From positions 796-24,795 of the forward strand of contig JAZSFP010000004.1 in NCBI GenBank assembly GCA_045532295.1: a stretch of DNA of 24,000 nucleotides. The letters run 5' to 3'. This DNA is from Pumilibacteraceae bacterium. GTDB taxonomy: Bacteria > Bacillota > Clostridia > Christensenellales > Pumilibacteraceae. Under the pieces are notes generated by a model. The model saw only the letters and a program-made list of their open reading frames with translations, was not told the origin of the DNA and did not search any database. Shown in pieces: positions 5,626 through 20,292 of the stretch (position 1 is its first letter; each line of letters opens with the position of its first letter). A program made the translations under genes and the position numbers.

Positions 5626-5630
5626 AAAAA

Positions 5631-5665
5631 AACCTCAAGTTTTTACGCTTGAGGTTTTCTTTTTA
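5631..5665. terminator. Bidirectional rho-independent terminator between convergent genes
   Basis: AACCTCAAG (5631-5639) pairs with CTTGAGGTT (5648-5656) around an 8 nt loop. An A-run precedes it and TTTTCTTTTT follows. It ends the minus-strand train after the gamma subunit gene and the plus-strand unit from the left. Confidence 0.8.
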
Positions 5666-6196
5666 TTAGTAATTATAACCGAGCATTACTGCTTTGAGGT
5701 TTATTTCGATAAGGTCGGCTTTCTTGGGGGGAACGACTTTTTTCATAGCCTCTTCTAAGCCCTCGATAGAAACGACGCCACTCTCTTTGATGACTTTGCC
5801 GAGCATAATCATATTAGCGAGGGTGGGCGCGCCCATATCCTTCGCCATTTTGGTAGCGGGAATATAGAAAGCGTTAACGTCTTCTCTTGCCACTTTTCTT
5901 TCTATAAGCGTGCTATCAACGACGATTACCGAGCCTGCAACCGCCTCGTTTTCGTATTTATCGAGCGAGGGAAGGTTCATTGCGATTAAGATATCGGGGT
6001 TAGACACGATGGGCGAGCCAACGGGTTCGTCGGAAATGATGATACTGCAGTTTGCCGTACCGCCACGCATTTCAGGACCGTAAGAGGGCAACCAACTTAC
6101 TTGCTTATCCTCGAAAAGTCCCTTGTACGCCAAGAACTTACCTGCAAAGAGTACGCCTTGACCGCCAAAGCCTGCAATTAAGATTTGTTTCGTCAT
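5666..6196 (-). CDS. 2-oxoacid:ferredoxin oxidoreductase, gamma subunit (VOR/KOR type)
   Basis: 176 aa with the N-terminal [14 protein letters not shown] motif typical of OFOR gamma subunits. It is the last gene of the delta-alpha-beta-gamma cluster. Confidence 0.85.
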
Positions 6197-6200
6197 AGTC

Positions 6201-6953
6201 TTAGTCCTCCTTCTTCGCGCTTCTGTCCTTGTAAACGCCTAAGGGATAATAGGGGAGCATTTTCTCCTCTACCCACTCAAGCGCCTTTTGAGGCGTCATA
6301 CCCCAGTTGGTAGGGCAAGAAGAAACGACTTCGATAAGCGAAAAGCCTTTGCCTTCAACTTGGTTACGGAACGCTTTAAGGATTGCCTTTTTAGCGTTCT
6401 TTACGTTTTTAACGGAGTTAACTGCAACGCGCTCAATATATTCAGGACCGTCCAAGGTTGCGAGCATTTCGCTAACTCTAATGGGGAAGCCCTGCGTTGC
6501 GGTATCACGACCGTAGGGGGAGGTTTGCGTTACCTGACCGGGAAGGGAGGTAGGCGCCATTTGTCCGCCCGTCATACCGTAGATAGCGTTGTTTACGAAG
6601 ATAATCGTGATATTCTCGCCTCTGGTTGCTGAGTGTACCGTTTCCGCCATACCGATAGAGGCAAGGTCGCCGTCGCCTTGGTAAGTAAATACGATATTTT
6701 CGGGCATACAGCGTTTAAGTCCCGTTGCAACCGCGGGCGCGCGTCCGTGAGCCGCCTCTAACATATCGCAAGTAAAGTAGTCGTAAGCCATAACCGCGCA
6801 ACCAACGGGCGCAACGCCAATGGTCTTACCTTCAATGCCAAGTTCTTCAATAGCCTCCGCTACGAGACGGTGAATAATACCGTGAGTACAGCCCGGGCAG
6901 TAATGCAAGGGCGTATCGGTGAGCGTAGAGGGTTTTTTAAATACGATAGCCAT
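6201..6953 (-). CDS. 2-oxoacid:ferredoxin oxidoreductase, beta (TPP-binding) subunit
   Basis: 250 aa with CPGCTHG and the TPP motif GDGDLASIG...NNAIYGMTGGQ. Its ATG overlaps the alpha subunit stop (TAATG), and AAGGAGG lies within the alpha 3' end. Confidence 0.9.
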   Translation of the reverse strand: MAIVFKKPSTLTDTPLHYCPGCTHGIIHRLVAEAIEELGIEGKTIGVAPVGCAVMAYDYFTCDMLEAAHGRAPAVATGLKRCMPENIVFTYQGDGDLASIGMAETVHSATRGENITIIFVNNAIYGMTGGQMAPTSLPGQVTQTSPYGRDTATQGFPIRVSEMLATLDGPEYIERVAVNSVKNVKNAKKAILKAFRNQVEGKGFSLIEVVSSCPTNWGMTPQKALEWVEEKMLPYYPLGVYKDRSAKKED

Positions 6954-8014
6954 TATTTAACCTCCTTCGACATCTTTTCGATGCTTGCAAGCACCTCGTC
7001 GGGCGAGGGCAACATACCACCCGTTCTGCTCGTGAGCCATACGGGGCGTTTGCACTCGGTCGCAAGGCGAATATCTTCAATCATTTGACCCATAGAAAGT
7101 TCTACGGAAATAAAGCCTTTAACCTGCTCTGCGGTCTTTTTCAAAACTTCGGTGGGGAAAGGCCAAAGCGTAATGGGGCGAATAAGTCCCACTTTTACGC
7201 CTTTCTTTCTCGCTGCGGTTACCGCGTTTTTGGAAATTCTTGCCGCGATACCGAACGCTACTACGCAGTACTCCGCGTCGTCCATCATATAACTTTCGTA
7301 TAAAACTTCGTCCTTATGGATTTTAGCGTACTTTTCAAAGCGTTCAATATTCGTCTTTTCCAAAATCTCGGGTTTAAGATAGAGCGAATTGATAATATTA
7401 TGCTTTCTCTCGCCCTTAGTTCCGTTAGCAGCCCAAGGCTTTTCAACGGGCGTAGAATTACTCTCGGGGATAGAAACGGGCTCCATCATTTGTCCCATAG
7501 TTCCGTCTGCAAGTAGCATTACGGGCATACGGTATTTGTCCGCTAAGTCGAACGCCTTAATCGTATAGTCCGCCATCTCTTGAACGGAGGCAGGGGCAAG
7601 CACTATAAGATGATAGTCGCCGTGTCCACCGCCCTTGGTCGCTTGGAAGTAGTCCGACTGCGAGGGCTGAATACCACCAAGACCGGGACCGCCACGCTGA
7701 ACGTTGACGATAAGCGCGGGAAGGTCTGCGCCGGCTATGTAGGAAATACCCTCTTGTTTAAGGGAAATTCCGGGGCTTGAAGAGGAAGTCATTACTCTAA
7801 AGCCTGCGCCTGCAACGCCGTAAACCATATTGATTGCGGAAACTTCGCTCTCAGCCTGCAAGAATACTCCACCGATTTTGGGCATACGCTTAGCCATATA
7901 AGCGGCAATCTCCGTTTGAGGCGTGATGGGATAACCAAAGTAGTGTCTGCAACCTGCTTTAATAGCCGCTTCCGCTATCGCCTCGTTACCTTTCATTAAA
8001 ACTTTTTCAGCCAT
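6953..8014 (-). CDS. 2-oxoacid:ferredoxin oxidoreductase, alpha subunit
   Basis: 353 aa. The N-terminus reads KGNEAIAEAAIKAGCRHYFGYPITPQTEI, followed by the internal motif VQRGGPGLGG, both typical of OFOR alpha subunits. Confidence 0.9.
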   Translation of the reverse strand: MAEKVLMKGNEAIAEAAIKAGCRHYFGYPITPQTEIAAYMAKRMPKIGGVFLQAESEVSAINMVYGVAGAGFRVMTSSSSPGISLKQEGISYIAGADLPALIVNVQRGGPGLGGIQPSQSDYFQATKGGGHGDYHLIVLAPASVQEMADYTIKAFDLADKYRMPVMLLADGTMGQMMEPVSIPESNSTPVEKPWAANGTKGERKHNIINSLYLKPEILEKTNIERFEKYAKIHKDEVLYESYMMDDAEYCVVAFGIAARISKNAVTAARKKGVKVGLIRPITLWPFPTEVLKKTAEQVKGFISVELSMGQMIEDIRLATECKRPVWLTSRTGGMLPSPDEVLASIEKMSKEVK

Positions 8015-8026
8015 AATTCGTTCTCC

Positions 8027-8233
8027 TTATCTTTCCACCGTAATCGCGCAGTCGGGACACATCGTAGCGCAGAAAGCGCAACCGATACACGCCTCTTGGT
8101 TGATAACCTCCGCAGGCGAGTGTCCTTTCGCGTTGAGGACGGTCTTGCTAAGTTCAATAATCTTCTTTGGGCAAGCGTGAACGCAAAGTCCACAACCCTT
8201 GCACACGTTTACTTCAATCGTAACTTTTGCCAT
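8027..8233 (-). CDS. 2-oxoacid:ferredoxin oxidoreductase, delta subunit (2x[4Fe-4S] ferredoxin)
   Basis: 68 aa with two CxxCxxCxxxCP motifs (CKGCGLCVHACP and CIGCAFCATMCP). Confidence 0.9.
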   Translation of the reverse strand: MAKVTIEVNVCKGCGLCVHACPKKIIELSKTVLNAKGHSPAEVINQEACIGCAFCATMCPDCAITVER

Positions 8234-8237
8234 TGTC

Positions 8238-8894
8238 TTACTCCTTAATATCGTAATATTTGCTTTGAAGGACGAGGGGGAACGCTCCCTCCATTTCCAC
8301 GGCAGAAGTCGTGAAAAGCACCTTTAGTCCCGTCAAAGCGGAAAGTCTTTCGCACTCGTCTTTAGTCGCTAAGATATCGTTTGCGGTAGTCTCGTCGCCG
8401 AGGTTAGAGTTGTTGATGATTGCGGTGAACTTGATTTTGCACGCGCTCTCAATCTCACGCATAACCTCGATAGCGTCCTCCGCCGTTCTCGTTAGCGGAC
8501 GATAAAAGTTAGCCACGAAACACATTTCGTAATTGTTTTCTTCTAAAATATAGGGGGTATATCTTCCCAGCGCGTACGCTCCTCTATCGTCGCCACCGAC
8601 GTCAATTATTGCAACCGTATTGCGATTTTGGAACATTGAGTACGCTTCGGGAGGAAGGGAAGGAAGGTCTACGTTAGTGTTAGCGAAAGCAGGAAGAATA
8701 ACTTTTACGCCCTTCTCCACTAACTCTCTTTCGCTATCCGCCGAGCGAAAATAGGGGTTGACGATATCAAGGTCAGCGAGCGTTACCGCTTTCCCCTCGC
8801 CCTTTAGCGCGAGCGCGAGGTTGACCGCAATATTCGTTTTTCCGCTACCGTAATGCCCTGCGATTATATAGACGCGCTTGTCTACGCCTTGCAT
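8238..8894 (-). CDS. P-loop NTPase of the MinD/ParA/CooC-like (SIMIBI) type, function unknown
   Basis: 218 aa with Walker A GHYGSGKT at residues 13-20, then LADLDIVNP and the Walker-B-like AIIDVGGDD. It overlaps the ilvE 3' end by 13 nt, which suggests translational coupling. Confidence 0.7.
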   Translation of the reverse strand: MQGVDKRVYIIAGHYGSGKTNIAVNLALALKGEGKAVTLADLDIVNPYFRSADSERELVEKGVKVILPAFANTNVDLPSLPPEAYSMFQNRNTVAIIDVGGDDRGAYALGRYTPYILEENNYEMCFVANFYRPLTRTAEDAIEVMREIESACKIKFTAIINNSNLGDETTANDILATKDECERLSALTGLKVLFTTSAVEMEGAFPLVLQSKYYDIKE

Positions 8895-9961
8895 ACCTTA
8901 CACATCCAGCCGTGAGTATCCTCTACCTTGCCCCACTGAATACCCGTTAAGTTGTCGTAGAGTTTTTGAGTGAGCGCGCCGATTTCGTTATTCGATACGG
9001 TGTACTCAACGCCGTCGTAGAAGAGTTTGCCGATGGGCGAAACGACTGCCGCCGTTCCCGTTCCCCAAGCCTCTTCAAGTTTGCCTTCTTTTGCCGCGGT
9101 AAAGAGTTCGTCGACGGAGAAAAGGCGTTCTTCAACCTCGTAGCCCCACTCTTTGAGAAGTTCTACGCAAGACTTTCTGGTAATACCGGGAAGAACCGAG
9201 CCGGTGAGCGCAGGCGTGATAATCTTTCCGTCCACTTTGAACATTACGTTCATACTGCCTACTTCTTCGATATACTTTCTGTCTACGCCGTCAAGCCAAA
9301 GAACTTGGGTATAACCGTTCTCTTCCGCTCTCTTGCCTGCTCTAAGGGAGGCTGCGTAGTTACCACCGCACTTAGCGTAACCCGTACCACCGCGAACCGC
9401 TCTGACGTCGCTTTGCTCGATAGCGATTTTAACGGGGTTAATGCCCTCTGCGTAGTACGCGCCAACGGGCGAGCAGATTACCACGAACATAGCCTCGTGT
9501 ACTGCGTGAACGCCAAGGTGTGGGTCGTTACCGTACATATAGGGACGAAGGTAAAGGGAAGTTCCCTCGCTGTGAGGAACCCAGTCCTTTTCCACTTCTA
9601 CGATAGTCTTTAAGATATCAAGGCAAGCCTCTTCGTCGATTTGGGGCAAGCAAAGACGCTCCGCGCTATTGTTGAGACGGCGAATATTCTCTAAAGGACG
9701 GAACATTGCAATCTCGTTTTGGGCAGTTCTATAAGCCTTCATACCCTCGAAAATCTCCGCGCCGTAGTGAAGAACGGTGGACGCTGGATGAACGGGGATA
9801 GGCGCGAAAGGTACGATTTGAGCGTCGTACCAGCCCTTGTCCTCCGACCACTTCATAATAAACATATGGTCGGTAAACACTCTACCAAAACCCAGTTTGC
9901 TCTCGTCTTGAGGTTTTTGCTTGGGACTTGTCGTCTTAGTAATTTTAATATCGAATTTCAT
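8882..9961 (-). CDS. ilvE: Branched-chain-amino-acid aminotransferase (fold-type IV)
   Basis: 359 aa with FEGMKAYR, SLYLRP, GTGYAKCGGNYAASL, LPGITR and GTAAVVSPI. AGAGAGG lies 8 nt upstream of the ATG. Only 29 nt separate it from the upstream ligase gene, and that gap has no hairpin. Confidence 0.9.
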   Translation of the reverse strand: MKFDIKITKTTSPKQKPQDESKLGFGRVFTDHMFIMKWSEDKGWYDAQIVPFAPIPVHPASTVLHYGAEIFEGMKAYRTAQNEIAMFRPLENIRRLNNSAERLCLPQIDEEACLDILKTIVEVEKDWVPHSEGTSLYLRPYMYGNDPHLGVHAVHEAMFVVICSPVGAYYAEGINPVKIAIEQSDVRAVRGGTGYAKCGGNYAASLRAGKRAEENGYTQVLWLDGVDRKYIEEVGSMNVMFKVDGKIITPALTGSVLPGITRKSCVELLKEWGYEVEERLFSVDELFTAAKEGKLEEAWGTGTAAVVSPIGKLFYDGVEYTVSNNEIGALTQKLYDNLTGIQWGKVEDTHGWMCKVCKA

Positions 9962-9990
9962 AATATATACCTCTCTAAAAATAGTATAAT

Positions 9991-12285
9991 CTATAATTTA
10001 TTTCTTTGGATTTTACCCGAAGTCGTCTTGGGAAGTTCGTCGCGGAATACGACTACTCTGGGGTACTTATAAGGCGCGGTGCGTTCTTTAACGTAGGCTT
10101 GGATTTCCTTTTTGAGTTCTTCCGTGCCCTCCGTTCCCTTAACGAGCACTATGCTCGCCTTAACTACTTGACCGCGAACCTCGTCGGGCTGAGCGGAAAC
10201 GCCACACTCAAGCACGTAGGGAAGTTCCATAATGACGTTCTCGATTTCAAAAGGTCCGATGCGGTAACCAGACGACTTAATAACGTCGTCAACGCGTCCT
10301 ACGTACCAGTAATAGCCGTCCTCGTCGCGCCAAGCGGTGTCGCCCGTATGGTAATATCCGTCGTGCCAACACTCCGCCGTCTTTTCCTCGTCGTCGTAGT
10401 AGCCCACGAACAAGCCGTTGGGTTTGCCGTGCTCGGTCTTGATACAGATTTCGCCCACTTCGCCCACCGCGGTAGGTTTGCCGTCGGCGTCGAGAAGTTT
10501 AATGTCGTATAGGGGTACGGGCTTACCCATTGAGCCAAGGCGCGAGGTCGTGCCTGCAAGGTTAGCAAGCGCAACGGTGGTTTCCGTTTGACCAAAGCCC
10601 TCCATAATCTGAAGTCCCGTTGCCTTTTCAAACTGACGGAAAACTTCGGGGTTGAGCGCCTCGCCGGCAGTTGACATATGCTCGATTGAGGAAAGGTCGA
10701 AGTTGGAAAGGTCTTGCTTTATCATCATTCTAAGCATAGTCGGGGGAGCACAGAAAGTGGTTATATGGTACTTTGCGAACATAGGCATAATGTCGTTTGC
10801 GTCGAAACGGTCAAAGTCGTAAACGAACAGTCCCGCCTCGCAAAGCCATTGTCCGTAAAGTTTACCCCACGCTGCCTTTGCCCAACCCGTGTCGGATATG
10901 GTAAGGTGTAGTCCGTCGGGGTTTACCGAGTGCCAGTACTTTGCGGTTATAAAGTGTCCTAAGGGGTACTTGTAGTTGTGCATAGCAATCTTGGGATTGC
11001 CGGTAGTACCCGAGGTAAAGTACATAAGCATTATATCGTCTCCGCAAGGAGCGTCCTCGCCTCTTTCAAGTTTGCCCGTATAGAGCGTATACTCTTCGTC
11101 GAAGGTTCTCCAGCCCTCACGCTTGCCGTTGACCATAATGATATGCTCGAGCGAGGGAGCGTTCTCTTTTGCCTTTTCCACCTCGAAAGACACTTCGCCG
11201 TCAGCGGTACAAAGGATTGCTTTTACGCCCGCTTTGTTAAGACGGTAAGTAATATCGTGCTCTTTAAGTTGGTTGGTAGCGGGGATTGCGATTGCGCCGA
11301 TCTTGTGAAGAGCGACCATAGCGAACCAGAACTGATAGTGGCGTTTGAGGATAAGCATTACCCTATCGCCTTTCTTAATTCCAAGCGCCTTGAAGTAGTT
11401 TGCGCACTGGTTAGAGGCGCGTTTAAGGTCGTGGAAAGTAATTCTTCGCTCCGTTTTGTCGTTCGATATATGCATAAGCGCGGTCTTGTCGGGGTCTTTG
11501 TCCGCAATAGCGTCCACCACGTCAAAGCCGAAGTTAAAGGTATCGTCGTTTCTAAAGGATATGGAAGTAGGTACTCCTCTCCCGTCCTCGGTAGTCGTGA
11601 TATACTTTTCCCAAACGCGTTTTCCCTCGTCCTTTTTCTTGGGAGGCGCGAACACCACGTCGGGCTCGTTGATTTTTGCGTGGGTAATGGTAGAAACGGA
11701 CTCGCGAGCAGGGTTAAGAACGAACGCGTAGAACACGCAGTCTGCGTTGTCCACCGCTATCATACCGTGAGGAACGGAACTGTCGTAGTAAATGCTGTCG
11801 CCCTCGCGGAGAATTTCGATATGATTTCCTACCTGTACTTTTAACGCGCCCGATACTACCACGTCGCACTCTTGTCCTTCGTGCGAGGTTAGTTCTATGG
11901 GCTTATTTTGTTGGAGAGGGTCGTACGAGGACACTACGAACAACGGCTCGGCAATTCTGTTCTTAAAGGCGGAGGCGAGGTTATAGTAAACCATACCGTG
12001 AGCCTTTTGAATTTCTTGACCTTCGCCCTTTCGCGTTACCGTGTATCCTGCAAGTCGAGGACCGCTACCGTCGATAATTTCGGTTACGTCAACCTTTAAA
12101 GCGGCTGCGCAACGGTACAAAAAGGCAAAGTTAAGGTCGCTACTACCGTTCTCGCAAGAGGCGTACTCTTCTTCGCTTACGCCCGTCTTTTGCGCCATTT
12201 CTTCAATCGAAAGTCCTTCGATTTCACGCAAAGTGCGAATACGCTGTGCCATCTCCATTATTTTGCTTTCTAAACTGTTAAACAT
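9991..12285 (-). CDS. Fusion protein: XRE-type HTH + cupin + AMP-forming acyl-CoA synthetase (medium-chain/ACSM-like), paralog 1 (Val T-box controlled)
   Basis: 764 aa counted from ATG 12285 (AGGAG 6 nt upstream); the track's extra 14 codons lie in the leader. The HTH is RIRTLREIEGLSIEEMAQKTGVSEEEYASCENG. The cupin is HEGQECDVVVSGALKVQVGNHIEILREGDSIYYDSSVPHGM. Ligase motifs are FTSGTTGNPK, SDTGW, GFGQTET, YHTGD, SSGYRIGPFEIE and PKTTSGKIQR. Confidence 0.85.
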   Translation of the reverse strand: MFNSLESKIMEMAQRIRTLREIEGLSIEEMAQKTGVSEEEYASCENGSSDLNFAFLYRCAAALKVDVTEIIDGSGPRLAGYTVTRKGEGQEIQKAHGMVYYNLASAFKNRIAEPLFVVSSYDPLQQNKPIELTSHEGQECDVVVSGALKVQVGNHIEILREGDSIYYDSSVPHGMIAVDNADCVFYAFVLNPARESVSTITHAKINEPDVVFAPPKKKDEGKRVWEKYITTTEDGRGVPTSISFRNDDTFNFGFDVVDAIADKDPDKTALMHISNDKTERRITFHDLKRASNQCANYFKALGIKKGDRVMLILKRHYQFWFAMVALHKIGAIAIPATNQLKEHDITYRLNKAGVKAILCTADGEVSFEVEKAKENAPSLEHIIMVNGKREGWRTFDEEYTLYTGKLERGEDAPCGDDIMLMYFTSGTTGNPKIAMHNYKYPLGHFITAKYWHSVNPDGLHLTISDTGWAKAAWGKLYGQWLCEAGLFVYDFDRFDANDIMPMFAKYHITTFCAPPTMLRMMIKQDLSNFDLSSIEHMSTAGEALNPEVFRQFEKATGLQIMEGFGQTETTVALANLAGTTSRLGSMGKPVPLYDIKLLDADGKPTAVGEVGEICIKTEHGKPNGLFVGYYDDEEKTAECWHDGYYHTGDTAWRDEDGYYWYVGRVDDVIKSSGYRIGPFEIENVIMELPYVLECGVSAQPDEVRGQVVKASIVLVKGTEGTEELKKEIQAYVKERTAPYKYPRVVVFRDELPKTTSGKIQRNKL

Positions 12286-12353
12286 AATTACTCCTATAAG
12301 TAAGCGAATAATAAGGCTATCGTTCAATAGACATAGGCTATGGAACAGAGCCT

Positions 12354-12626
12354 ACAAAAAACGCTCGTCTCAAAAAATCATCTTTGAGACGAGCATACTT
12401 TTCCGTATTACCCGCGGTACCACTCAAATTGCGCAAGCGCGCCACCTCAGGCTCAAACAAGCCGTAGACTTTTACGCAGTCGTCACGGGAAGGTTCTAAT
12501 AGGGCGAGCGCCCGTTCTTCCTTCCGACTCGGAAGTTACAGTTCTTTTCTCACTTTAACGGTTCACACCTTCGTCCGTCTCTCTGAAAAGTTACCCAAAA
12601 AGAACACTCTTCGTCACAGTCTTTAC
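12354..12626 (-). promoter_or_regulatory. T-box riboswitch leader, specifier GUA (Val)
   Basis: Read on the minus strand. GA/K-turn: GACT-GTGAC-GAAG pairs with CTTC-CGA-GTC. AG bay: AGAGAG. Distal stem ACGG/CCGT has a loop containing GGTGTGA. Specifier loop: GAAC-U-GUA-A-CUUC, with the codon at the complement of 12537-12539. T-box motif: AATTTGAGTGGTACCGCGGG (complement of 12411-12430). Terminator: GCTCGTCTCAA/TTGAGACGAGC (12363-12394) plus GTTTTTTGT. TTTGAG of the T-box can pair with CTCAAA of the terminator 5' arm to form the antiterminator. Confidence 0.9.
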
Positions 12627-12632
12627 GGGGCA

Positions 12633-12661
12633 ATTATACCATTTTTAATATGGTTTGTCAA
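12633..12661 (-). promoter_or_regulatory. Consensus SigA-type promoter of the Val T-box unit
   Basis: Minus strand: TTGACA (12661-12656), a 17 nt spacer, then TATAAT (12638-12633) preceded by TGg (extended -10). It starts 45 nt downstream of the paralog-2 stop codon. Confidence 0.85.
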
Positions 12662-12706
12662 CGATTTTTCAAAGGTTTCTTACATTATTTATACTATACT
12701 ATATAA

Positions 12707-14974
12707 TTATAATTTATTTCTTTGGATTTTACCCGAGATAGTCTTGGGCAGTTCGTCGCGGAAGACTACGATACGGGGGTACTTATAGGGCGCGGTATGG
12801 GACTTAACGTAGGCTTGGATTTCCTTTTTAAGTTCTTCCGTTCCCACCGTTCCTTTGGTTAAAACTACGCTCGCCTTAACTACCTGACCACGAATATCGT
12901 CGGGCTCGGGGGACACGGCGCACTCAAGCACGTAGGGAAGTTCCATAATAACGCTCTCGATTTCAAAAGGTCCGATGCGGTAGCCAGACGACTTGATAAC
13001 GTCGTCTTTACGGCTAACGTACCAAAAATATCCGTCCTCGTCGCGCCAAGCGGTGTCGCCCGTGTGGTAAACGCCGTCGTGCCAAGCGTCAGCGGTAAGG
13101 TCTTCCGCTCTGTAATATTCCTTGAAAAGTCCACAGGGAACGGACTCGTCGGTATGGATAACGATTTCGCCCGTCTCACCGTTGGGAAGAGAATTGCCCT
13201 CGTCGTCCACGATATCCACTCTGTACTGGGGCGACGCTTTACCCATCGAGCCGATTTTGGGCGTCGTTCCGCGGAGGTTACAGATAGTAAGCGTGGTTTC
13301 CGTTTGGCCAAAGCCCTCCATAATCTTAAGCCCCGTAGCGTGCTCGAACTGACGGTAAACCTCGGGGTTGAGCGCCTCGCCTGCCGTGGTCATATGATGA
13401 ACGGAGGAAAAATCGTACTTTCCAAGGTCGCTCTTTATGAACATTCTGAGCATAGTTGGGGGAGCGCAGAAGGTCGTGATTTGGTACTTTGCGAACATAG
13501 GAAGGATTTCCTCTGCCTTGAAGACGTCGAAGTCGTAAACGAACACCGCGCCTTCGCAAAGCCATTGACCGTACAGTTTGCCCCAGAGCGATTTGCCCCA
13601 GCCCGTATCGGAAATGGTAAAGTGTAGTCCGTCGCGCTCGCAGTTATGCCAGTATTTAGCGGTAACGTAATGTCCAAGCGCGTAGGTGTGCTTGTGAGCC
13701 GCCATTTTAGGATTGCCCGTCGTTCCAGAAGTGAAGAACATAAGCGCGGTATCCTCGCCGGCAGAGGCGTTCTCTGCGCGGTCGAACTTGCTCGAAAAAC
13801 GCGTGTACTCTTCGTTAAAGTTATGCCAGCCCTCTTTTTCGCCGTTGACGAGCAACTTAACTTCCACGGAAGGACAGTTCTTCGACGCGCGCTCGGCAAT
13901 GTCGGAAACGTCGCCGTCGGCAGTACAAACGATAGCCTTTACGCTCGCTGCGTTAAAGCGGTATTCAAAGTCGTGCTCTTTGAGTTGGTTGGTAGCAGGG
14001 ATTGCGACCGCGCCGATTTTATGAAGAGCGACCATAGCGAACCAGAACTGATAATGGCGTTTAAGCACGAGCATTACCTTATCCCCTCTCTTAATTCCAA
14101 GCGAGAGGAAGTAGTTCGCGCACTGGTTAGAGGCTTTTTTGATATCCTTAAAGGTAAATCTGCGCTCCGTTAAATCACGGCTTATATGGAGCATAGCAAG
14201 TTTATCGGGGTACTTATTCGCAATCTCGTCCACAACGTCAAAGCCGAAGTTAAAGGTGTCGGTATTCTTGAACTTAATGTCGGTAAGAGTGCCGTTCTCG
14301 TCCTCGGTGGTCTCGACGAACTTCTCGCAAATAAGTTCCTCGGACTCCTGATGCGCCACTACGCTCTTTCTTACTACCTCTTCCTTGGTGTCCTCGCCGG
14401 GAAGAACTACCGCGCAGAACACGCAGTCGCGTCCGCCGATTGCTATCATACCGTGAGGGGTGGACGAATTATAGTAAATGCTGTCGCCCTCGTTAAGAAT
14501 TTCCGTATGCTCGCCGATTTGTACTTTAAGCGAACCCTCTAAAACGAGGTCGAACTCTTGACCGCCGTGGGTGGTAAGGTGGATAGGCTTATTCTGTTGC
14601 GACGCAGAATACTCGTATCTTACCCAGTAAGGCTGAGCAATTTTATCGCGGAACTTGGGCGCAAGGTTCTTAATGTCGATGCCCTCTTCTTTAGCCGTCG
14701 ACTGTCCCTGTCCCTTTCTCGTTACCGTATAAGAAGATAGGTTCGCAGCGTTACCTTCAAGAAGTTCGGTAAGTTCTACGCCGAAAACTAACGCGCATTT
14801 ATGAATAAATGAAAAGGGAATATCTATTCGACCAGACTCGTATTTAATGTAATCGCTCTCGCTAACTTCAGCGCGATTTGCCATTTCCGATACCGAAAAT
14901 CCCATTACGTTACGCATTTCTTTGATACGCTGGGCAACTTCCGTCAGTCTGTTCATAGTGTTCTTGTCTTCCAT
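12707..14974 (-). CDS. Fusion protein: XRE-type HTH + cupin + AMP-forming acyl-CoA synthetase, paralog 2 (Ile T-box controlled)
   Basis: 755 aa counted from ATG 14974 (AAGGAG 9 nt upstream). The track's extra 43 codons run through the T-box terminator. The architecture and motifs match paralog 1 (FTSGTTGNPK, SDTGW, GFGQTET, YHTGD, SSGYRIGPFEIE, PKTISGKIQR), and both share the C-terminal end SGKIQRNKL. Confidence 0.85.
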   Translation of the reverse strand: MEDKNTMNRLTEVAQRIKEMRNVMGFSVSEMANRAEVSESDYIKYESGRIDIPFSFIHKCALVFGVELTELLEGNAANLSSYTVTRKGQGQSTAKEEGIDIKNLAPKFRDKIAQPYWVRYEYSASQQNKPIHLTTHGGQEFDLVLEGSLKVQIGEHTEILNEGDSIYYNSSTPHGMIAIGGRDCVFCAVVLPGEDTKEEVVRKSVVAHQESEELICEKFVETTEDENGTLTDIKFKNTDTFNFGFDVVDEIANKYPDKLAMLHISRDLTERRFTFKDIKKASNQCANYFLSLGIKRGDKVMLVLKRHYQFWFAMVALHKIGAVAIPATNQLKEHDFEYRFNAASVKAIVCTADGDVSDIAERASKNCPSVEVKLLVNGEKEGWHNFNEEYTRFSSKFDRAENASAGEDTALMFFTSGTTGNPKMAAHKHTYALGHYVTAKYWHNCERDGLHFTISDTGWGKSLWGKLYGQWLCEGAVFVYDFDVFKAEEILPMFAKYQITTFCAPPTMLRMFIKSDLGKYDFSSVHHMTTAGEALNPEVYRQFEHATGLKIMEGFGQTETTLTICNLRGTTPKIGSMGKASPQYRVDIVDDEGNSLPNGETGEIVIHTDESVPCGLFKEYYRAEDLTADAWHDGVYHTGDTAWRDEDGYFWYVSRKDDVIKSSGYRIGPFEIESVIMELPYVLECAVSPEPDDIRGQVVKASVVLTKGTVGTEELKKEIQAYVKSHTAPYKYPRIVVFRDELPKTISGKIQRNKL

Positions 14975-15042
14975 TTTTCTAATCTCCTTTTTATTTTTTA
15001 AGGCTGTGAGCGGAGGGGGCAAATAGTCTTTAAGGCGAAGAC

Positions 15043-15315
15043 CTAAAAAACCCATCTCAATGATTCTAACATTGAGACGGGTTAAAATAACTCGCGGTAC
15101 CACTCAACTTGCATAAAAAATTATGCCACTTATCAGGTTCAAACAAACCCTACGCACTAACGCAGCGGACTCGGAAAGCGCCTACTAAAGCAATCGCTCT
15201 TTGGGGCTTTCGGCTCGGAAGTGATAGGTCTTGCGGACTCTTCGTTTATCGGTTCTCAGCAACCCGACTCTCTGGAAAACTATTTATCCAACCGTCTTCG
15301 TCACAGCCTTTATAT
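15043..15315 (-). promoter_or_regulatory. T-box riboswitch leader, specifier AUC (Ile)
   Basis: Read on the minus strand. GA/K-turn: GGCT-GTGAC-GAAG pairs with CTTC-CGA-GCC. AG bay: AGAGAG. Distal stem TCGG/CCGA has a loop containing GCTGAGA. Specifier loop: GACC-U-AUC-A-CUUC, with the codon at the complement of 15223-15225. T-box motif: AAGTTGAGTGGTACCGCGAG (complement of 15091-15110). Terminator: ACCCGTCTCAATG/CATTGAGATGGGT (15050-15082) plus TTTTTTAGG. Confidence 0.9.
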
Positions 15316-15321
15316 GCGCCT

Positions 15322-15350
15322 ATTATAGCACTACGCTTTTTCTTTGTCAA
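15322..15350 (-). promoter_or_regulatory. Consensus SigA-type promoter of the Ile T-box unit
   Basis: Minus strand: TTGACA (15350-15345), a 17 nt spacer, then TATAAT (15327-15322) preceded by TGc. It begins 30 nt after the amidohydrolase stop. Confidence 0.85.
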
Positions 15351-15379
15351 CGATTTTACAAGGGTTTTTTAAATTTTTT

Positions 15380-16174
15380 TTACAAGTTTTTCAAGTTAAA
15401 TACCCTTATTGCGTTCTTGTAAAAAATCTGCTCTCTCTCCTCTTCGGTTAAGCCCAAAGCGTTAAAGCGCGCCATTTCCTCGTCAATCTTCCACATAGGA
15501 AAATCGGTAGCGAAAAGCACTCTTTGTGCGCCGTACTTTCTTATAACGGCGGTAGCGGTTTGAGGGGAAATCATTGCAAGCGAACTTGAACAATCCACGA
15601 AAACCTGCTTATAGGGCGCAAGTTTTTCCACCGCCTCTTCCCAAACGGAATATCCGCCGAGGTGCGCGGCAATTACCGTAAGATTTGGGAAACGCTCCAA
15701 AACGCTTATGAGGTTTTCGGGGTTAGAATAATTGTAACGGCTATCGCCTGCGTGGATAAGCAAGGGAATTTTGCCCTCGATTGCGCGGTAAATCTTGTCG
15801 CATCGTGGGTCGTCAAGCGCGATTGCTTGAATATCGGGGTGGAGTTTTACGCCGTGAAGATTGAGCGATATAATCTCTTCCACTTCGCTTTCCACCTCTT
15901 CGCTATCGGGGTGGAGCGTTCCAAGTCCGATAAAGCGGTCGGGACGGCTTTTAACCATATCCGCAATAAAGTGGTTTATGGATCGGACTTGCGAGGGCTT
16001 AGTTGCAACGGAGAAAATAACGGAGTGCGTTACGCCGTTCTTCTCACTCTCGCTTATAAGCGTTTCCACTCGTCCGTCGTAGTCCATCGGGATAGAATAG
16101 AACTTGCCTATGCTCTCCACTGCTTTTTCAACGATTTTCTCGGGGTAAATATGGCAATGACAGTCGATAATCAT
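15380..16174 (-). CDS. TIM-barrel metal-dependent hydrolase (amidohydrolase-2 / COG2159-like)
   Basis: 264 aa with N-terminal IIDCHCH (HxH metal motif), later HLGG and FATDFP. It is the last gene of the Leu T-box unit, starting 4 nt after the upstream stop. Confidence 0.7.
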   Translation of the reverse strand: MIIDCHCHIYPEKIVEKAVESIGKFYSIPMDYDGRVETLISESEKNGVTHSVIFSVATKPSQVRSINHFIADMVKSRPDRFIGLGTLHPDSEEVESEVEEIISLNLHGVKLHPDIQAIALDDPRCDKIYRAIEGKIPLLIHAGDSRYNYSNPENLISVLERFPNLTVIAAHLGGYSVWEEAVEKLAPYKQVFVDCSSSLAMISPQTATAVIRKYGAQRVLFATDFPMWKIDEEMARFNALGLTEEEREQIFYKNAIRVFNLKNL

Positions 16175-16177
16175 ACC

Positions 16178-18631
16178 TTACCCCTTTATGCCGAGCATTT
16201 CCACGCTCTGCTCTTTCATCTTATATTTAAGAATTTTGCCCGCAGCGTTCATCGGGAATTCTTTGACGAACACGAAGTAACGGGGTACTTTGTGTTTAGC
16301 CATATTAGCGTTACCGTACTCGCGCATTTCCGCCTCGTCCGCCGTTTCGCCTTTTTTAAGGATTATCCAAGCGCAACATTCTTCGCCGTATCTCTCGTCG
16401 GGAACGCCCACTACTTGCACGTCGCGAACTTTTTGGTGAGTAAGATAGAACTCTTCAATCTCGCGAGGATAGAGGTTTTCGCCACCGCGAATAATCATAT
16501 CTTTAAGTCTGCCCGTAACCTTATAGTATCCGTCCGCAGTTTTGCAACAGATATCTCCGCTATGGAGCCAGCCTTCTCTATCAATCGCCTCGCTGGTTGC
16601 TTTGGGCATTTTGTAATAGCCTTTCATTATATTATAACCGCGCGCAACGAACTCGCCGTTCTCACCGTCGGGAACTTCCTCGCCCGTTTCGGGGACGATA
16701 ACCTTACACTCAACGCCGGGGAAAGCCGAGCCTACCGTTTCCACTCTATGCTCTTCGTCCTCGTTGACTTCGCCCATAGTGCACCCGGGGCTTGCCTCGG
16801 TCTGACCGTAAACGCTGATTATCTCGCGCATATTCATTTCCGCCGACGCTCTGCGCATAAGGTCTGCCGGACAGTTCGCCCCTGCCATTATTCCCGTTCG
16901 CATATACGAAAAGTCCGTTTTAGCAAAGTCGGGGTGGTTGAACATAGCGATAAACATCGTGGGAACGCCGTTAAAGGCGGTAATATGCTCGTCGTTTACG
17001 CAAGCAAGCGAACTTTTTGGCGAGAAGTAGGGCATAGGACACATAGTTACGCCGTGCGTCATACTGTTCGTCATTGAAAGCACCATACCAAAGCAATGGA
17101 ACATAGGTACTTGTATCATCATTCTGTCCGCCGTGGACATATCCATTCTGTCGCCTATGATTTTACCGTTGTTGACGATATTGCGATGAGTGAGCATTAC
17201 GCCTTTAGGAAAGCCCGTAGTACCCGAAGTGTACTGCATATTGCACACGTCGTCGGGGCGAACGAGCGCGGCGCGTCTTCTAACCTCTTCGTCAGGAACG
17301 AGAACGCTCCTCTTCATAAAGTCTTCCCACTCTAAGCATCCGTCCATATTAAAGCCTACCGTTATTACGTTGCGAAGGAAAGGCAAGGTCTTTGAGTAAA
17401 GGGGCTGGGCGGGGGTTAAATTTTTAAGTTCGGGACAAAGTTCTTCGATTATTTCTTTATAGTTACTGTCCTTGCAACTGTCAATCATAACGAGCGTATG
17501 CGTGTCGGACTGACGGAGGAGGTACTCTGCCTCGTGGATTTTATAAGCGGTATTAACCGTAACGAGAACCGCGCCGATTTTTACCGTCGCCCAGAAGGTA
17601 AGATACCACTGAGGAATATTCGTCGCCCAAATTGCCACGTGGTGTCCGGGGCGCACGCCAAGGGATATAAGTGAGGCGGCTACTTTATCCACTTCGTCAC
17701 GGAATTCGCGATAGGTACGCGTATAATCGTGCGTGGTATACTTAAAAGCGTACTGGTCGGGATAATGCTCTACCATAGTGTCGAGAACCTCGGAAAAGGT
17801 AAGGTCGAGAACTTCGTACTTTTTCCAAGGGTGCGTTCCGCTCTTATCTCTATTATAGAAAATTTCCTTGGGTTTTGCGCTCGCCCGTTCAATCGAACTC
17901 ATAAAACTTTCAAAGTGCGTGAGCAAAATATCGGGGTTAGTAACCTCGCCGGCGGAAAGCGCGCAGATATAACCGTCGTAGTTAAGGGAACGGAGCGCGC
18001 TTATAAACTCGCCTACGGGCAGTTCGCCCTCGCCCATAAGCGTGTCTTCGCCATCAAGCATATCGCCGATTTTAACGTACTCAATGTACGCGCCCAAAGT
18101 CTGAATAGTGCGGTCGGCAGTCTCTTTCGCTCTAAAGAAGGTCTCGCGGATATTCCAGCACACCTTTACCGACGCCGAGCCCAGCATACCTATAACGCCC
18201 AAGATTTTCTCAGTGTGAGCAAGCGCGTTCGCCGTCTCTATTAAAATATCAACGCCGTACTCTTCCGCCGTCTTTATTACAGGGGTAAAGATTTCCTTGA
18301 TTTTTTCCTCCGTAATTTCGCCAAAGGTAACCACGACGCCCGGAGCAGTTACGCGTCCTGCTTGCTTAATCGTTTCGATAATATCCTGAGGGTTGGTGTT
18401 TTGGTCGATAATCTTGGGATAGCCCACTACCGCTATGGCAATTCTGCGGTTGATAAGTTTGCGCTTTTGGTCAACGGTAAGTTCCTCGCGGAAAATACTG
18501 TCCGCGTGCGCGCTAATCTGTTCTTCTATCGACGATATTTCAAAGCCCGAAAACCCGTAATGCGCCGTAGCGGTGCAAAGTTCAAGGAAACTTTTAGTGG
18601 GTACGAGCGAAGTAGAAAATGCAAGTTTCAT
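16178..18631 (-). CDS. Fusion protein: xylose-isomerase-like TIM barrel (N-terminal ~250 aa) + AMP-dependent acyl-CoA ligase (FadD/ACSF2-like)
   Basis: 817 aa. The N-terminal part (GFSGFEIS...VVVTFG...DILIETAN...VCWNIRETF...YVKIGD...GELPVGEFISALRSLNYDGYI) looks like the AP-endonuclease-2/xylose-isomerase fold. The C-terminal part has YTSGTTGFPKGVMLTH, YGQTE, LHSGD, RGGENLYPREIE and AAGKILK. The 471-aa plus-strand ORF at 15662-17077 is an antisense shadow. Confidence 0.8.
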   Translation of the reverse strand: MKLAFSTSLVPTKSFLELCTATAHYGFSGFEISSIEEQISAHADSIFREELTVDQKRKLINRRIAIAVVGYPKIIDQNTNPQDIIETIKQAGRVTAPGVVVTFGEITEEKIKEIFTPVIKTAEEYGVDILIETANALAHTEKILGVIGMLGSASVKVCWNIRETFFRAKETADRTIQTLGAYIEYVKIGDMLDGEDTLMGEGELPVGEFISALRSLNYDGYICALSAGEVTNPDILLTHFESFMSSIERASAKPKEIFYNRDKSGTHPWKKYEVLDLTFSEVLDTMVEHYPDQYAFKYTTHDYTRTYREFRDEVDKVAASLISLGVRPGHHVAIWATNIPQWYLTFWATVKIGAVLVTVNTAYKIHEAEYLLRQSDTHTLVMIDSCKDSNYKEIIEELCPELKNLTPAQPLYSKTLPFLRNVITVGFNMDGCLEWEDFMKRSVLVPDEEVRRRAALVRPDDVCNMQYTSGTTGFPKGVMLTHRNIVNNGKIIGDRMDMSTADRMMIQVPMFHCFGMVLSMTNSMTHGVTMCPMPYFSPKSSLACVNDEHITAFNGVPTMFIAMFNHPDFAKTDFSYMRTGIMAGANCPADLMRRASAEMNMREIISVYGQTEASPGCTMGEVNEDEEHRVETVGSAFPGVECKVIVPETGEEVPDGENGEFVARGYNIMKGYYKMPKATSEAIDREGWLHSGDICCKTADGYYKVTGRLKDMIIRGGENLYPREIEEFYLTHQKVRDVQVVGVPDERYGEECCAWIILKKGETADEAEMREYGNANMAKHKVPRYFVFVKEFPMNAAGKILKYKMKEQSVEMLGIKG

Positions 18632-18633
18632 AG

Positions 18634-19992: not shown

Positions 19993-20019
19993 AATTTATT
20001 GCCTCCTAAAGTCAAATAC

Positions 20020-20292
20020 ATAAACAAAACCCGCAGATGAGAAGATTTCCTTCTCTTCTGCGGGATGATTACAAAGAACCACGGTACCACCCGTCATTGC
20101 CGTAAAATACGACCTCTTATAGAACTCCAACAAGTCCGTTCGCTATAACGGGCGCGCCCGTAATTCCTTACTATAAGTTCCGGAATTCCGCTCCGATACG
20201 AGACTGCTATCCCGTCCGCCCGTTATCTCGCACCAACCGATAACTCTCTGAAGGGTTTTTGACGACACGCATAATATCTTCACAGCGTTTAT
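20020..20292 (-). promoter_or_regulatory. T-box riboswitch leader, specifier CUC (Leu)
   Basis: Read on the minus strand. GA/K-turn: CGCT-GTGAA-GATA pairs with TATC-GGA-GCG. AG bay: AGAGAG. Distal stem TTATC/GATAA has a loop containing GGTGCGA. Specifier loop: GCAG-U-CUC-G-UAUC, with the codon at the complement of 20200-20202. T-box motif: AATGACGGGTGGTACCGTGG (complement of 20079-20098). Terminator: CCCGCAGAAGAGAAG/CTTCTCATCTGCGGG (20030-20064, one mismatch) plus TTTTGTTTAT. Confidence 0.9.

What the first reader, a model, noticed from the sequence alone, without database searches (positions are those of the whole stretch)
9991..15350. Tandem duplication of a whole promoter + T-box + ligase module in which the specifier codon switched (GUA vs AUC)
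The units 9991-12661 and 12707-15350 are collinear. They share the -35 context (AAAATCGTTGACAAA), the leader length, the same domain order and an identical C-terminal SGKIQRNKL followed by TAAATTATA. By eye, the gene 3' ends (for example 9991-10300 versus 12707-13020) align without gaps and most bases are identical. The leaders have diverged much more than the genes but keep the same fold through compensatory changes. The specifier codon differs, which suggests coupled neofunctionalisation of riboswitch specificity and, presumably, enzyme substrate pocket.
Basis: seen in the sequence. Interest (0 to 1): 0.62.

Follow-up and report, generated by a model that had tools for sequence, protein, structure and literature searches.

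The report
Paired tRNA-gated branched-acid ligase genes
Two neighbouring copies of a promoter, a tRNA-sensing RNA switch and a fatty-acid-activating enzyme gene, one set for isoleucine and one for valine, are an old duplication conserved across gut and rumen Clostridia. They most likely let a bacterium that lacks the normal pathway rebuild these amino acids from branched fermentation acids.

Summary
Two collinear minus-strand units each hold a perfect promoter, a complete T-box leader and an HTH-cupin-acyl-CoA synthetase gene. The upstream unit carries specifier AUC (Ile) and the downstream unit GUA (Val).

The duplication is ancient, not recent. The proteins are 62% identical and dS is about 1. 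The same tandem, with the same specifiers in the same order, occurs in at least 7 families of the order.

Across 111 homologues the specifier tracks the enzyme clade, and Val is derived from an Ile-type ancestor. Only one catalytic-domain residue separates the two clades completely: Ala469 (Val copy) versus Gly460 (Ile copy). It lies four residues before the pocket Trp259 of MacsMa. Most clade-specific residues (14 of 16) lie in the HTH-cupin module.

Downstream are the genome's only BCAT and a VorB-type 2-oxoacid:ferredoxin oxidoreductase. ilvB, ilvC, ilvD and leuC were not found.

Best reading: isobutyrate and 2-methylbutyrate are activated under cognate tRNA control, reductively carboxylated and transaminated to Val and Ile.

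The near-identical 3' ends probably reflect gene conversion.

This scan has already noted the arrangement on other DNA (83 notes, at least 71 genomes). I found no paper on it. Substrates remain untested.

The parts
15322..15350 (-). Promoter of the Ile unit (TTGACA-17-TGcTATAAT)
   Evidence: 12/12 consensus match with TG extension. Sequence read.
15070..15313 (-). T-box leader with specifier AUC (Ile) at 15225-15223. Stem I is 15312-15209 and the T-box motif is 15105-15093.
   Evidence: Rfam RF00230 at 86.7 bits, E 1.1e-18, model 1-219. Own Stem I model R1 at 78 bits. Specifier column read.
15049..15083 (-). Intrinsic terminator of the Ile leader (14-bp stem plus T run)
   Evidence: It overlaps the 3' helix of the Rfam match.
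12707..14974 (-). LigI (P0002, 755 aa): HTH_XRE + cupin_2 + Macs/MbcS-type acyl-CoA synthetase. Pocket Gly460 is encoded at 13597-13595.
12633..12661 (-). Promoter of the Val unit (TTGACA-17-TGgTATAAT). There is no terminator between the LigI stop and this promoter.
   Evidence: 12/12 consensus match with TG extension, and no terminator-like site at 12662-12706.
12382..12626 (-). T-box leader with specifier GUA (Val) at 12539-12537. Stem I is 12625-12523 and the T-box motif is 12425-12413.
   Evidence: Rfam RF00230 at 75.4 bits, E 8.7e-16, model 1-219. R1 at 81 bits. Specifier read.
12361..12396 (-). Intrinsic terminator of the Val leader (16-bp stem plus T run)
9991..12285 (-). LigV (P0001, 764 aa): same three-part architecture. 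Pocket Ala469 is encoded at 10881-10879. The best solved relative is 3ETC.
8882..9961 (-). Branched-chain amino acid aminotransferase (class IV), the only copy in the genome
   Evidence: NF009897 at 481 bits, above the 307 cut-off. Single tblastn hit in the genome.
8238..8894 (-). ParA/Mrp-like P-loop NTPase, conserved between the ligase and the oxidoreductase in nearly all related loci
5666..8233 (-). Four-subunit 2-oxoacid:ferredoxin oxidoreductase: delta 8027-8233, alpha 6953-8014, beta 6201-6953, gamma 5666-6196
   Evidence: The alpha subunit matches NF005507 (VorB) at 567 bits, above the 399 cut-off. The delta ORF was read. Pfam hits.
5626..5661 (-). Terminator ending the Val-unit operon
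   Evidence: 14-bp stem plus T run immediately after the gamma subunit.
15380..20292 (-). Upstream third unit: Leu T-box (CUC, 20058-20292), LeuA-like gene (18634-19992), TIM-barrel::acyl-CoA ligase fusion (16178-18631) and amidohydrolase_2 (15380-16174)
   Evidence: Rfam at 111 bits. Pfam and NCBIfam hits. The same order recurs in L001-L008, L016, L017 and L019.

Best explanation
The two units are old paralogues of one regulatory-plus-coding module. Each has a constitutive sigma-70 promoter, a transcription-terminating T-box leader, and a gene for an HTH-cupin module fused to a Macs/MbcS-type short branched-chain acyl-CoA synthetase.

Shown. The upstream leader carries AUC and the downstream leader GUA. 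These match the genome's single tRNA-Ile(GAU) and single tRNA-Val(UAC).

Inferred mechanism. When the cognate tRNA is uncharged it stabilises the antiterminator, and the ligase gene is transcribed. LigI activates 2-methylbutyrate and LigV activates isobutyrate to the CoA thioesters. The VorB-type ferredoxin oxidoreductase encoded downstream carboxylates these reductively to the 2-oxo acids. The adjacent aminotransferase then makes Ile and Val.

Evolution. The module began as an Ile-type unit. After a tandem duplication early in the order, one copy changed its specifier. AUC to GUC needs one transition, and GUC forms still exist. The same copy changed a pocket glycine to alanine (GGC to GCA here) and acquired a set of fixed changes in the cupin and HTH domains. 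Both copies have since been kept under purifying selection. Their 3' ends are probably homogenised by occasional gene conversion.
For: T-boxes. The leaders give full-length Rfam matches at E 1e-16 to 1e-18. Both have perfect promoters and strong terminators. Stem I is supported by covariation across 88 related leaders: 91.7% of cells paired, 22 of 23 pairs with double changes, 0 of 500 shuffles as high. The cognate tRNAs have A73-CCA ends that fit the UGGU of the T-box motif.

Enzymes. The best solved relative is 3ETC at 609 bits. That enzyme, MacsMa, prefers 2-methylbutyrate (PMC10455477). The best NCBIfam model is MbcS, an enzyme that activates 2-methylbutyrate and isobutyrate (PMC10026030).

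Pathway context. The oxidoreductase alpha subunit scores above the VorB cut-off and the aminotransferase above the BCAT cut-off. Both are single-copy in the genome. ilvD, ilvC and ilvB were not found, and the only leuC-like match is an aconitase-sized ORF, in a genome that is 95.6% complete. Rumen bacteria are known to make Val, Ile and Leu from isobutyrate, 2-methylbutyrate and isovalerate (PMC7356843, citing Allison and co-workers).

Age. dS is 1.06 and dN/dS 0.28. The same tandem occurs in at least 7 families.

Coupling of specifier and enzyme. The Val clade (36 rows, SH-aLRT 99) and the Ile clade (40 rows, SH-aLRT 97) are separate. The tally of specifier against pocket residue is AUC with Gly 50 and Ala 1, GUN with Ala 28 and Gly 0, and CUC with Gly 2. 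L056, nested in the Ile clade, shows a second, independent GUC-plus-Ala case.

Polarity. Deeper lineages, including split and stand-alone ligases, carry AUC with Gly.

Fixed differences. Of 16 strictly clade-specific positions, 14 lie in residues 1-190 and one in the ligase domain, Ala469/Gly460. Fisher p is 2e-7.
Against: - There is no biochemical or expression evidence.
- MbcS accepts both isobutyrate and 2-methylbutyrate, so one enzyme could serve both amino acids. The paralogues might then differ only in regulation.
- The pocket assignment rests on sequence alignment to MacsMa and on my recollection of the Acs pocket residues (Val310 in Salmonella Acs, Ile312 in AcsMt). The AlphaFold model was poor (pLDDT 63, and below 50 at residues 464-473).
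- One outgroup gene (L049) pairs AUC with Ala.
- The specifier-residue association rests on only about two independent evolutionary events.
- The shared oxidoreductase and aminotransferase lie behind the Val T-box only. It is unclear how Ile starvation alone would raise them.
- Both leaders score below Rfam's curated threshold.
Confidence: 0.66

Rival explanations
1. Regulatory subfunctionalisation only. Both ligases keep the same broad specificity for branched short-chain acids. The duplication merely places one copy under Ile-tRNA control and the other under Val-tRNA control.
For: The characterised relative MbcS uses both isobutyrate and 2-methylbutyrate (PMC10026030). Only one or two catalytic-domain positions are fixed differently. 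In genus g71 a single Ile T-box drives both genes, which lie 12-36 nt apart.
Against: Ala469/Gly460 is invariant in 36 versus 36 sequences and lies four residues before the pocket Trp. An independent GUC lineage also carries Ala. Both paralogues have been retained for a long time, even where they share one leader, which argues for non-redundant enzymes.
Confidence: 0.2
2. The ligases mainly supply branched acyl-CoA primers for membrane branched-chain fatty acids, as MbcS does in Staphylococcus aureus, rather than feeding amino-acid synthesis.
For: The closest named family is MbcS, whose shown role is lipid-primer salvage (PMC10026030, PMC11167679). BCAA shortage would also deplete primers derived from BCAAs.
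Against: The ligase genes are co-transcribed with the genome's only BCAT and a VorB-type oxidoreductase. The genome lacks ilvB, ilvC and ilvD, so it needs another source of the 2-oxo acids. The two roles are not mutually exclusive.
Confidence: 0.09
3. A recent tandem duplication in this genome whose copies have only begun to diverge, as the near-identical 3' ends and the identical -35 context suggested.
For: The last 300 nt are 85% identical, and closer to each other than to any orthologue. The promoters share an identical 15-mer and identical promoter-to-ATG spacing.
Against: Overall dS is 1.06 and protein identity 62%. Each copy has orthologues at 75-85% identity in other families. The two copies fall in separate, well-supported clades. 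The A-tract plus TTGACA context recurs in orthologous promoters of other genomes.
Confidence: 0.02
4. Catabolic direction. The locus degrades BCAAs by transamination and oxidative decarboxylation, and the ligases play an accessory role.
For: BCAT and VOR reactions are reversible, and VOR is usually annotated as a dehydrogenase.
Against: T-boxes switch genes on when the cognate tRNA is uncharged, that is, when the amino acid is scarce. AMP-forming ligases activate acids and do not release them. No de novo BCAA pathway was found.
Confidence: 0.03

Closest known systems
T-box leaders duplicated together with paralogous genes and then changed in specifier (for example the NSS-family transporter in-paralogues of the Bacillus cereus group under Leu, Phe and Trp T-boxes; Wels et al. 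2008, PMC2494555; also noted in PMC3766115, citing Vitreschak et al. 2008)
   Same: A transcriptional T-box and its gene are copied together. A change in the specifier codon re-tunes one copy to another amino acid, and the protein diverges in parallel.
   Different: Here the controlled genes are acyl-CoA synthetases fused to an HTH-cupin module, not transporters, aaRS or classical biosynthetic genes. The two units are chained in one locus with a third (Leu) unit and shared downstream enzymes.
MacsMa, the medium-chain acyl-CoA synthetase of Methanosarcina acetivorans (PDB 3ETC)
   Same: It is the best solved relative of the ligase part (609 bits, residues 247-762). The Gly that replaces the Acs pocket Trp (FGQTE) and the alternative pocket Trp259 are both conserved. 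MacsMa prefers 2-methylbutyrate (PMC10455477).
   Different: MacsMa has no HTH-cupin module and no T-box. It has Gly at the position where LigV has Ala469, so it resembles LigI.
Staphylococcus aureus MbcS (methylbutyryl-CoA synthetase)
   Same: It is the best NCBIfam model for both proteins. It activates isobutyrate and 2-methylbutyrate and handles isovalerate poorly (PMC10026030).
   Different: The score is 442 bits against the 850-bit equivalog cut-off, so these are not MbcS orthologues. MbcS feeds lipid primers. It is a single gene with no known T-box and no N-terminal module.
Bacillus subtilis ilv-leu operon under a Leu T-box (own knowledge)
   Same: tRNA-sensed transcription attenuation controls the supply of branched-chain amino acids.
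   Different: That operon encodes the de novo pathway from pyruvate. This locus has none of those enzymes except a divergent LeuA-like gene, and it uses three separate specifiers.
Stand-alone XRE-HTH + cupin regulators (for example PDB 1Y9Q, a Vibrio HTH_3 family regulator)
   Same: The N-terminal 195 residues align end to end with this 192-aa protein (E 9e-8).
   Different: Here the module is fused to an enzyme. In some relatives it is a separate gene directly upstream of the ligase. DNA binding is untested.

Membership tests
T-box leader (Rfam RF00230) | Score at or above the curated gathering threshold (93 bits) | tested here: inconclusive
   The scores are 86.7 and 75.4 bits, below the cut-off. 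The E-values are 1e-18 and 9e-16, and the matches cover model positions 1-219. The threshold is a curation convention and not a structural feature.
T-box leader (Rfam RF00230) | Stem I with a K-turn (UGA...GAG), an AGAGA motif, a distal loop and a specifier loop holding a codon just before the closing helix | tested here: met
   All elements are seen. The structure is supported by covariation in 88 homologous leaders. The codons are AUC followed by A, and GUA followed by A.
T-box leader (Rfam RF00230) | Conserved T-box sequence with UGGN, able to pair with the tRNA NCCA end, and mutually exclusive with an intrinsic terminator | tested here: met
   GAGUGGUACCGCG is present in both leaders. The terminators are 12396-12361 and 15083-15049. 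tRNA-Val(UAC) and tRNA-Ile(GAU) end in ACCA.
T-box leader (Rfam RF00230) | Read-through dependent on the uncharged cognate tRNA | not testable with these tools
   This needs in vitro transcription or reporter assays.
ANL superfamily, Macs/MbcS-type short or medium-chain acyl-CoA synthetase | AMP-binding and AMP-binding_C domains with the core motifs (TSGTTGxPK, GQTE, YHTGD, catalytic Lys in SGKIxR) | tested here: met
   Pfam gives 237 and 77 bits. The motifs are visible.
ANL superfamily, Macs/MbcS-type short or medium-chain acyl-CoA synthetase | Gly in place of the Acs pocket Trp (xGQTE), plus the alternative pocket Trp (MacsMa Trp259) | tested here: met
   FGQTE and GW[A/G]KxxW are invariant in 90 homologues. 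The numbering comes and PMC10455477.
MbcS equivalog (NF047394) | Score above the equivalog cut-off (850 bits) | tested here: not met
   The scores are 442 and 441 bits. The proteins are related but not MbcS orthologues.
2-oxoisovalerate:ferredoxin oxidoreductase (VorB, NF005507) | Alpha subunit above the curated cut-off, with beta, gamma and delta subunits adjacent | tested here: met
   567 bits, above 399. The delta, beta and gamma subunits are present. Substrate range and direction were not tested.
Branched-chain aminotransferase (NF009897 / TIGR01123) | Score above the curated cut-off | tested here: met
   481 bits, above 307, and 390 bits, above 250.
XRE-HTH + cupin transcription regulators | Both domains above the Pfam gathering scores | tested here: met
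   HTH_19 gives 36.8 bits against 30.2. Cupin_2 gives 41.9 bits against 27.2.
XRE-HTH + cupin transcription regulators | Sequence-specific DNA binding and ligand response | not testable with these tools
   No operator was identified. The shared -35 context is an A-tract plus consensus -35 that also occurs in orthologous promoters.

The most novel reading that the evidence does not exclude
The fused HTH-cupin module is a paralogue-specific ligand sensor. Its cupin pocket would read free Val versus Ile, or the matching acid or acyl-AMP, and either gate the ligase allosterically or bind DNA in the manner of BirA. Each branch of the salvage pathway would then be controlled twice: by tRNA charging through the T-box, and by a small molecule through the enzyme's own sensor. 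The duplication would have had to re-tune three specificities together: specifier codon, acyl pocket and sensor.
Probability: 0.3. Interest if true: 0.75.

Novelty: new variant of a known kind. Interest (0 to 1): 0.6.

Why it matters
Rumen and gut anaerobes have been known since the 1960s to need branched short-chain acids and to carboxylate them into Val, Ile and Leu. I found no paper that assigns the genes or their regulation.

This locus offers candidate genes for every step, and the tRNA specifiers label the intended product of each branch.

The paralogue pair is a natural experiment. A one-codon change in an RNA switch and a Gly/Ala change in an acyl pocket appear to have moved together, so substrate specificity can be tested directly by residue and specifier swaps.

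The concentration of clade-specific residues in the fused HTH-cupin module points to a further, unstudied layer of control.

In practice, the locus could serve as a genomic marker for dependence on branched-chain volatile fatty acids in uncultured Oscillospiraceae- and Ruminococcaceae-type bacteria.

Tried and rejected
- Default Rfam scan. At gathering thresholds it missed both leaders. An E-value scan was needed.
- Specifier caller. My first regex-based caller gave false motif hits inside coding regions and failed on several leaders. I replaced it with a Stem I covariance model.
- Recent duplication. Rejected on dS, orthologue identities and the tree.
- The shared 15-mer AAAATCGTTGACAAA as an operator for the HTH domain. 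Rejected as unsupported. Orthologous promoters show only an A-rich tract plus TTGACA with variable bases.
- Independent recruitment of a Val T-box from elsewhere. Disfavoured. The Val leader's nearest in-genome relative is the adjacent Ile leader, and this genome has no other Val T-box.
- Window ORF 3-932 as LeuB. It is an NADP isocitrate dehydrogenase.
- Structure. The AlphaFold2 model from a shallow alignment was too poor to map the pocket (pLDDT 63). I therefore ran no fold search.
- Papers. The papers on the MacsMa structure and pocket mutants, the Acs structure and Vitreschak 2008 were not held.
- Expression.
- Literature. Searches for T-box together with acyl-CoA ligase or VOR found nothing relevant.


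Full report
**What is there.** Everything lies on the minus strand.
- An E-value Rfam scan finds two further full-length T-box leaders besides the one that passes the gathering score. They are 15313-15070 (86.7 bits, E 1e-18) and 12626-12382 (75.4 bits, E 9e-16).
- Each leader is preceded by a 12/12 TTGACA-17-TATAAT promoter with a TG extension (15350-15322 and 12661-12633). Each ends in a strong intrinsic terminator (15083-15049 and 12396-12361).
- The distance from the -35 to the ATG is 376 nt in both units.
- The genes are 14974-12707 (P0002, 755 aa) and 12285-9991 (P0001, 764 aa). Both encode XRE-HTH + cupin_2 + AMP-binding + AMP-binding_C.
- The specifier loops read U-AUC-A and U-GUA-A directly before the closing CUUC helix.
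- The genome has a single tRNA-Ile(GAU) and a single tRNA-Val(UAC). Both end in ACCA, which fits the UGGU of the T-box motif.

One statement is wrong: the leaders are not more diverged than the genes. Leader identity is 66-71%. The whole CDS is 68% identical and the ligase part 72%. Four of 23 Stem I pairs differ between the two leaders by compensatory double changes.

**How old is the duplication?** The proteins are 62% identical. Nei-Gojobori dS is 1.06 and dN/dS is 0.28. Amino-acid identity by domain is HTH 36%, cupin 58%, linker 24%, ligase N-domain 67% and ligase C-domain 86%. A protein search returned at least 8000 relatives. The top 120 are all 75-85% identical to P0001 with the same architecture, so they are far closer than the in-genome paralogue. 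Their public names are only 'AMP-binding protein', 'cupin domain-containing protein' or 'acetyl-CoA synthetase', from Oscillospiraceae, Ruminococcaceae and Clostridia MAGs. In 401 genomes of the same order, 153 have a match at E 1e-200 or better. Tandem pairs occur in at least seven families.

**Does the specifier follow the enzyme?** I fetched 60 loci, built a Stem I covariance model and aligned 89 Stem I hits.
- The structure is strongly supported. 91.7% of cells are paired, 22 of 23 pairs show double changes, and 0 of 500 shuffles reach the observed values.
- Every orthologue of the downstream gene that has its own leader reads GUA (25), GUG (1) or GUC (1).
- Every orthologue of the upstream gene that has its own leader reads AUC (33). 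The exception is a nested four-gene sub-clade with CUC twice, GUC once and one gene without a leader.
- A maximum-likelihood tree of 90 proteins separates a Val clade (36 rows, SH-aLRT 99) from an Ile clade (40 rows, SH-aLRT 97). An outgroup clade carries AUC or no leader.
- Twenty more distant relatives include split HTH-cupin plus ligase gene pairs and stand-alone ligases. Eleven have AUC leaders and none has a GUN leader.

The ancestral state is therefore Ile. The Val unit is derived. AUC to GUC is a single transition, and GUC forms still exist (L030, L056).

The whole locus order recurs in many genomes: Leu T-box(CUC), LeuA-like, TIM::ligase, [amidohydrolase], Ile T-box, LigI, Val T-box, LigV, BCAT, P-loop protein, oxidoreductase. 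In one genus a single Ile leader drives both ligase genes, which lie 12-36 nt apart.

**Where do the paralogues differ?** I looked for positions at least 80% conserved within each clade and with at most 10% cross-occurrence. There are 16. Five are in the HTH, nine in the cupin, one in the linker and one in the 519-residue ligase part. Within-clade conservation is the same in the cupin and the ligase N-domain (0.78-0.80), so the excess is not simply faster drift. Fisher p is 2e-7.

The single catalytic-domain position is Ala469 in LigV (36 of 36) against Gly460 in LigI (36 of 36), in the motif D-T-G-W-[A/G]-K-x-x-W. By the alignment to 3ETC, with a chain-numbering offset of +23 derived from YHTGD 431-435, it corresponds to MacsMa Gly255. 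[quoted passage not shown]

From my own knowledge it also aligns with Val310 of Salmonella Acs and Ile312 of AcsMt. That is one of the four acetate-pocket residues, and changing it broadens chain length (the role of Ile312 is cited in PMC3477478). I could not check the alignment to Acs with the tools.

The neighbouring position 472/463 is Leu in all Ile-clade members and variable (A, M, L, G) in the Val clade. A smaller pocket (Ala) for isobutyrate and a larger one (Gly, as in the 2-methylbutyrate enzyme MacsMa) is chemically sensible, but it is an inference.

Over all genes with a called leader the tally is AUC with Gly 50 and Ala 1, GUN with Ala 28 and Gly 0, and CUC with Gly 2. These counts are not independent. 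They reflect roughly two events: the origin of the Val clade, and L056, a GUC-plus-Ala lineage nested in the Ile clade (T-box at 56 bits). There is one exception (L049).

**What is the pathway?** The Val unit continues without a terminator into four further elements and ends at a terminator at 5661-5626:
- a class IV branched-chain aminotransferase (481 bits, cut-off 307);
- a conserved ParA/Mrp-like P-loop protein;
- a delta-alpha-beta-gamma 2-oxoacid:ferredoxin oxidoreductase whose alpha subunit passes the VorB model (567 bits, cut-off 399).

The BCAT and this oxidoreductase are single-copy in the 1.86-Mb, 95.6%-complete genome. Searches for IlvD, IlvC and acetolactate synthase found nothing. 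The only LeuC-like match is an aconitase-sized ORF.

T-boxes turn genes on when the amino acid is short, and AMP-forming ligases activate acids. The closest characterised enzymes use 2-methylbutyrate and isobutyrate (PMC10455477, PMC10026030). Conversion of these acids to Ile and Val by rumen bacteria is classical physiology (PMC7356843, citing Allison and co-workers).

The best reading is a tRNA-gated salvage route: acid to acyl-CoA, then reductive carboxylation to the 2-oxo acid, then transamination to the amino acid. One point stays open. The shared enzymes sit only behind the Val leader, so Ile starvation alone would depend on read-through or basal expression.

**The very similar 3' ends.** The last 300 nt of LigV are closer to the same-genome LigI (85%) than to any orthologue (80% or less). 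A middle segment is closest to orthologues. The same pattern appears in L008, L014, L015, L018, L019 and L030. In the last 50 or so codons, paralogue identity is 0.82-0.91 against 0.70-0.79 for orthologues, and C-terminal dS is half that of the N-domain. This suggests recurrent gene conversion confined to the C-terminal domain, which carries no clade-specific residues. It explains why the units looked young by eye.

**Comparison with what is known.** Duplication of T-boxes with a change of specificity is an established mode of regulon evolution (PMC3766115, citing Vitreschak 2008). Paralogous transporters under differently specified T-boxes have been described (PMC2494555). The components here (T-box, Macs/MbcS-type ligase, VOR, BCAT) are all known families.

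In the held literature I did not find T-box control of acyl-CoA ligases, a gene-level description of the branched-acid carboxylation route, or the HTH-cupin fusion.

The scan itself has noted the arrangement many times on other DNA: 83 notes in at least 71 genomes. It has also noted it on this window. Those notes agree with my reading. The residue-level analysis, the polarity and the gene-conversion signal are my own tests.

**Limits.**
- No usable 3D model was obtained.
- The trees used a quick search with SH-aLRT support only.

Noticed in passing
window 15380-20292 (-): A third unit lies upstream. A Leu T-box (CUC, 111 bits) controls three genes. The first is a LeuA-like protein that scores far below the LeuA cut-off (232 against 532 bits). 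The second is a xylose-isomerase-like TIM barrel fused to a FadD-type ligase that is only about 24% identical to LigV and LigI. The third is an amidohydrolase_2. No leuCD or leuB was found in the genome, so the LeuA-like gene is not part of a normal Leu pathway. In other loci, LeuA-like and TIM-barrel genes follow the BCAT instead.
   Followed up: partly
window 8238-8894 (-): A 218-aa ParA/Mrp/NUBPL-like P-loop NTPase sits between the ligase or BCAT and the oxidoreductase in almost every related locus. It may be an Fe-S cluster carrier for the oxidoreductase. It matches no curated family.
   Followed up: no
G000 genome-wide (tRNA set); window 20058-20292: The Leu leader's specifier is CUC, but aragorn finds tRNA-Leu(AAG) and no tRNA-Leu(GAG) among 40 tRNAs. 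Reading CUC would need A34-to-I editing or a missing tRNA gene. The genome is a 27-contig draft.
   Followed up: no
G000:C25:53220-55034 (outside the window): Another Ile (AUC) T-box, 69% identical to the Ile leader of this locus, precedes a 479-aa protein with an ACT domain and a metallo-beta-lactamase fold. Its function is unknown.
   Followed up: partly
window 5666-20292 as a whole: None of the five sampled genomes of the same genus has either ligase. The closest orthologues are in other genera and families. This suggests lateral transfer of the locus or patchy loss.
   Followed up: partly
window 12638-12654 (-): A perfect inverted repeat, ACCAT-N7-ATGGT, lies between the -35 and the -10 of the Val-unit promoter and overlaps the extended -10. 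Orthologous Val promoters show inverted repeats of different sequence around the -10 (for example TGAGA...TCTCA in L001-L003 and L007). It could be an operator, or a hairpin in read-through RNA.
   Followed up: no
L014, L023, L024, L026, L027, L037, L041, L042, L046 and others (Stem I): Many Ile leaders of this family have C instead of the usual purine directly after the specifier codon (AUC-C).
   Followed up: no
L029 (G429:C56), L057 (G021:C6), L021-L027: Three architectural variants were seen. In L029 a LigI copy is truncated or hybrid, and its C-terminal piece is 89% LigV-like. In L057 a Leu T-box sits between the P-loop gene and the oxidoreductase. In genus g71 a single Ile leader drives LigI and LigV.
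   Followed up: partly
G069, G074, G100, G279, G065, G089, G119 (L061-L068): In more distant relatives the HTH-cupin module is a separate ORF directly upstream of the ligase, with one stop codon between them. Other relatives lack the module altogether. The fusion is therefore a Rosetta-stone link between a regulator-like protein and the enzyme.
   Followed up: partly
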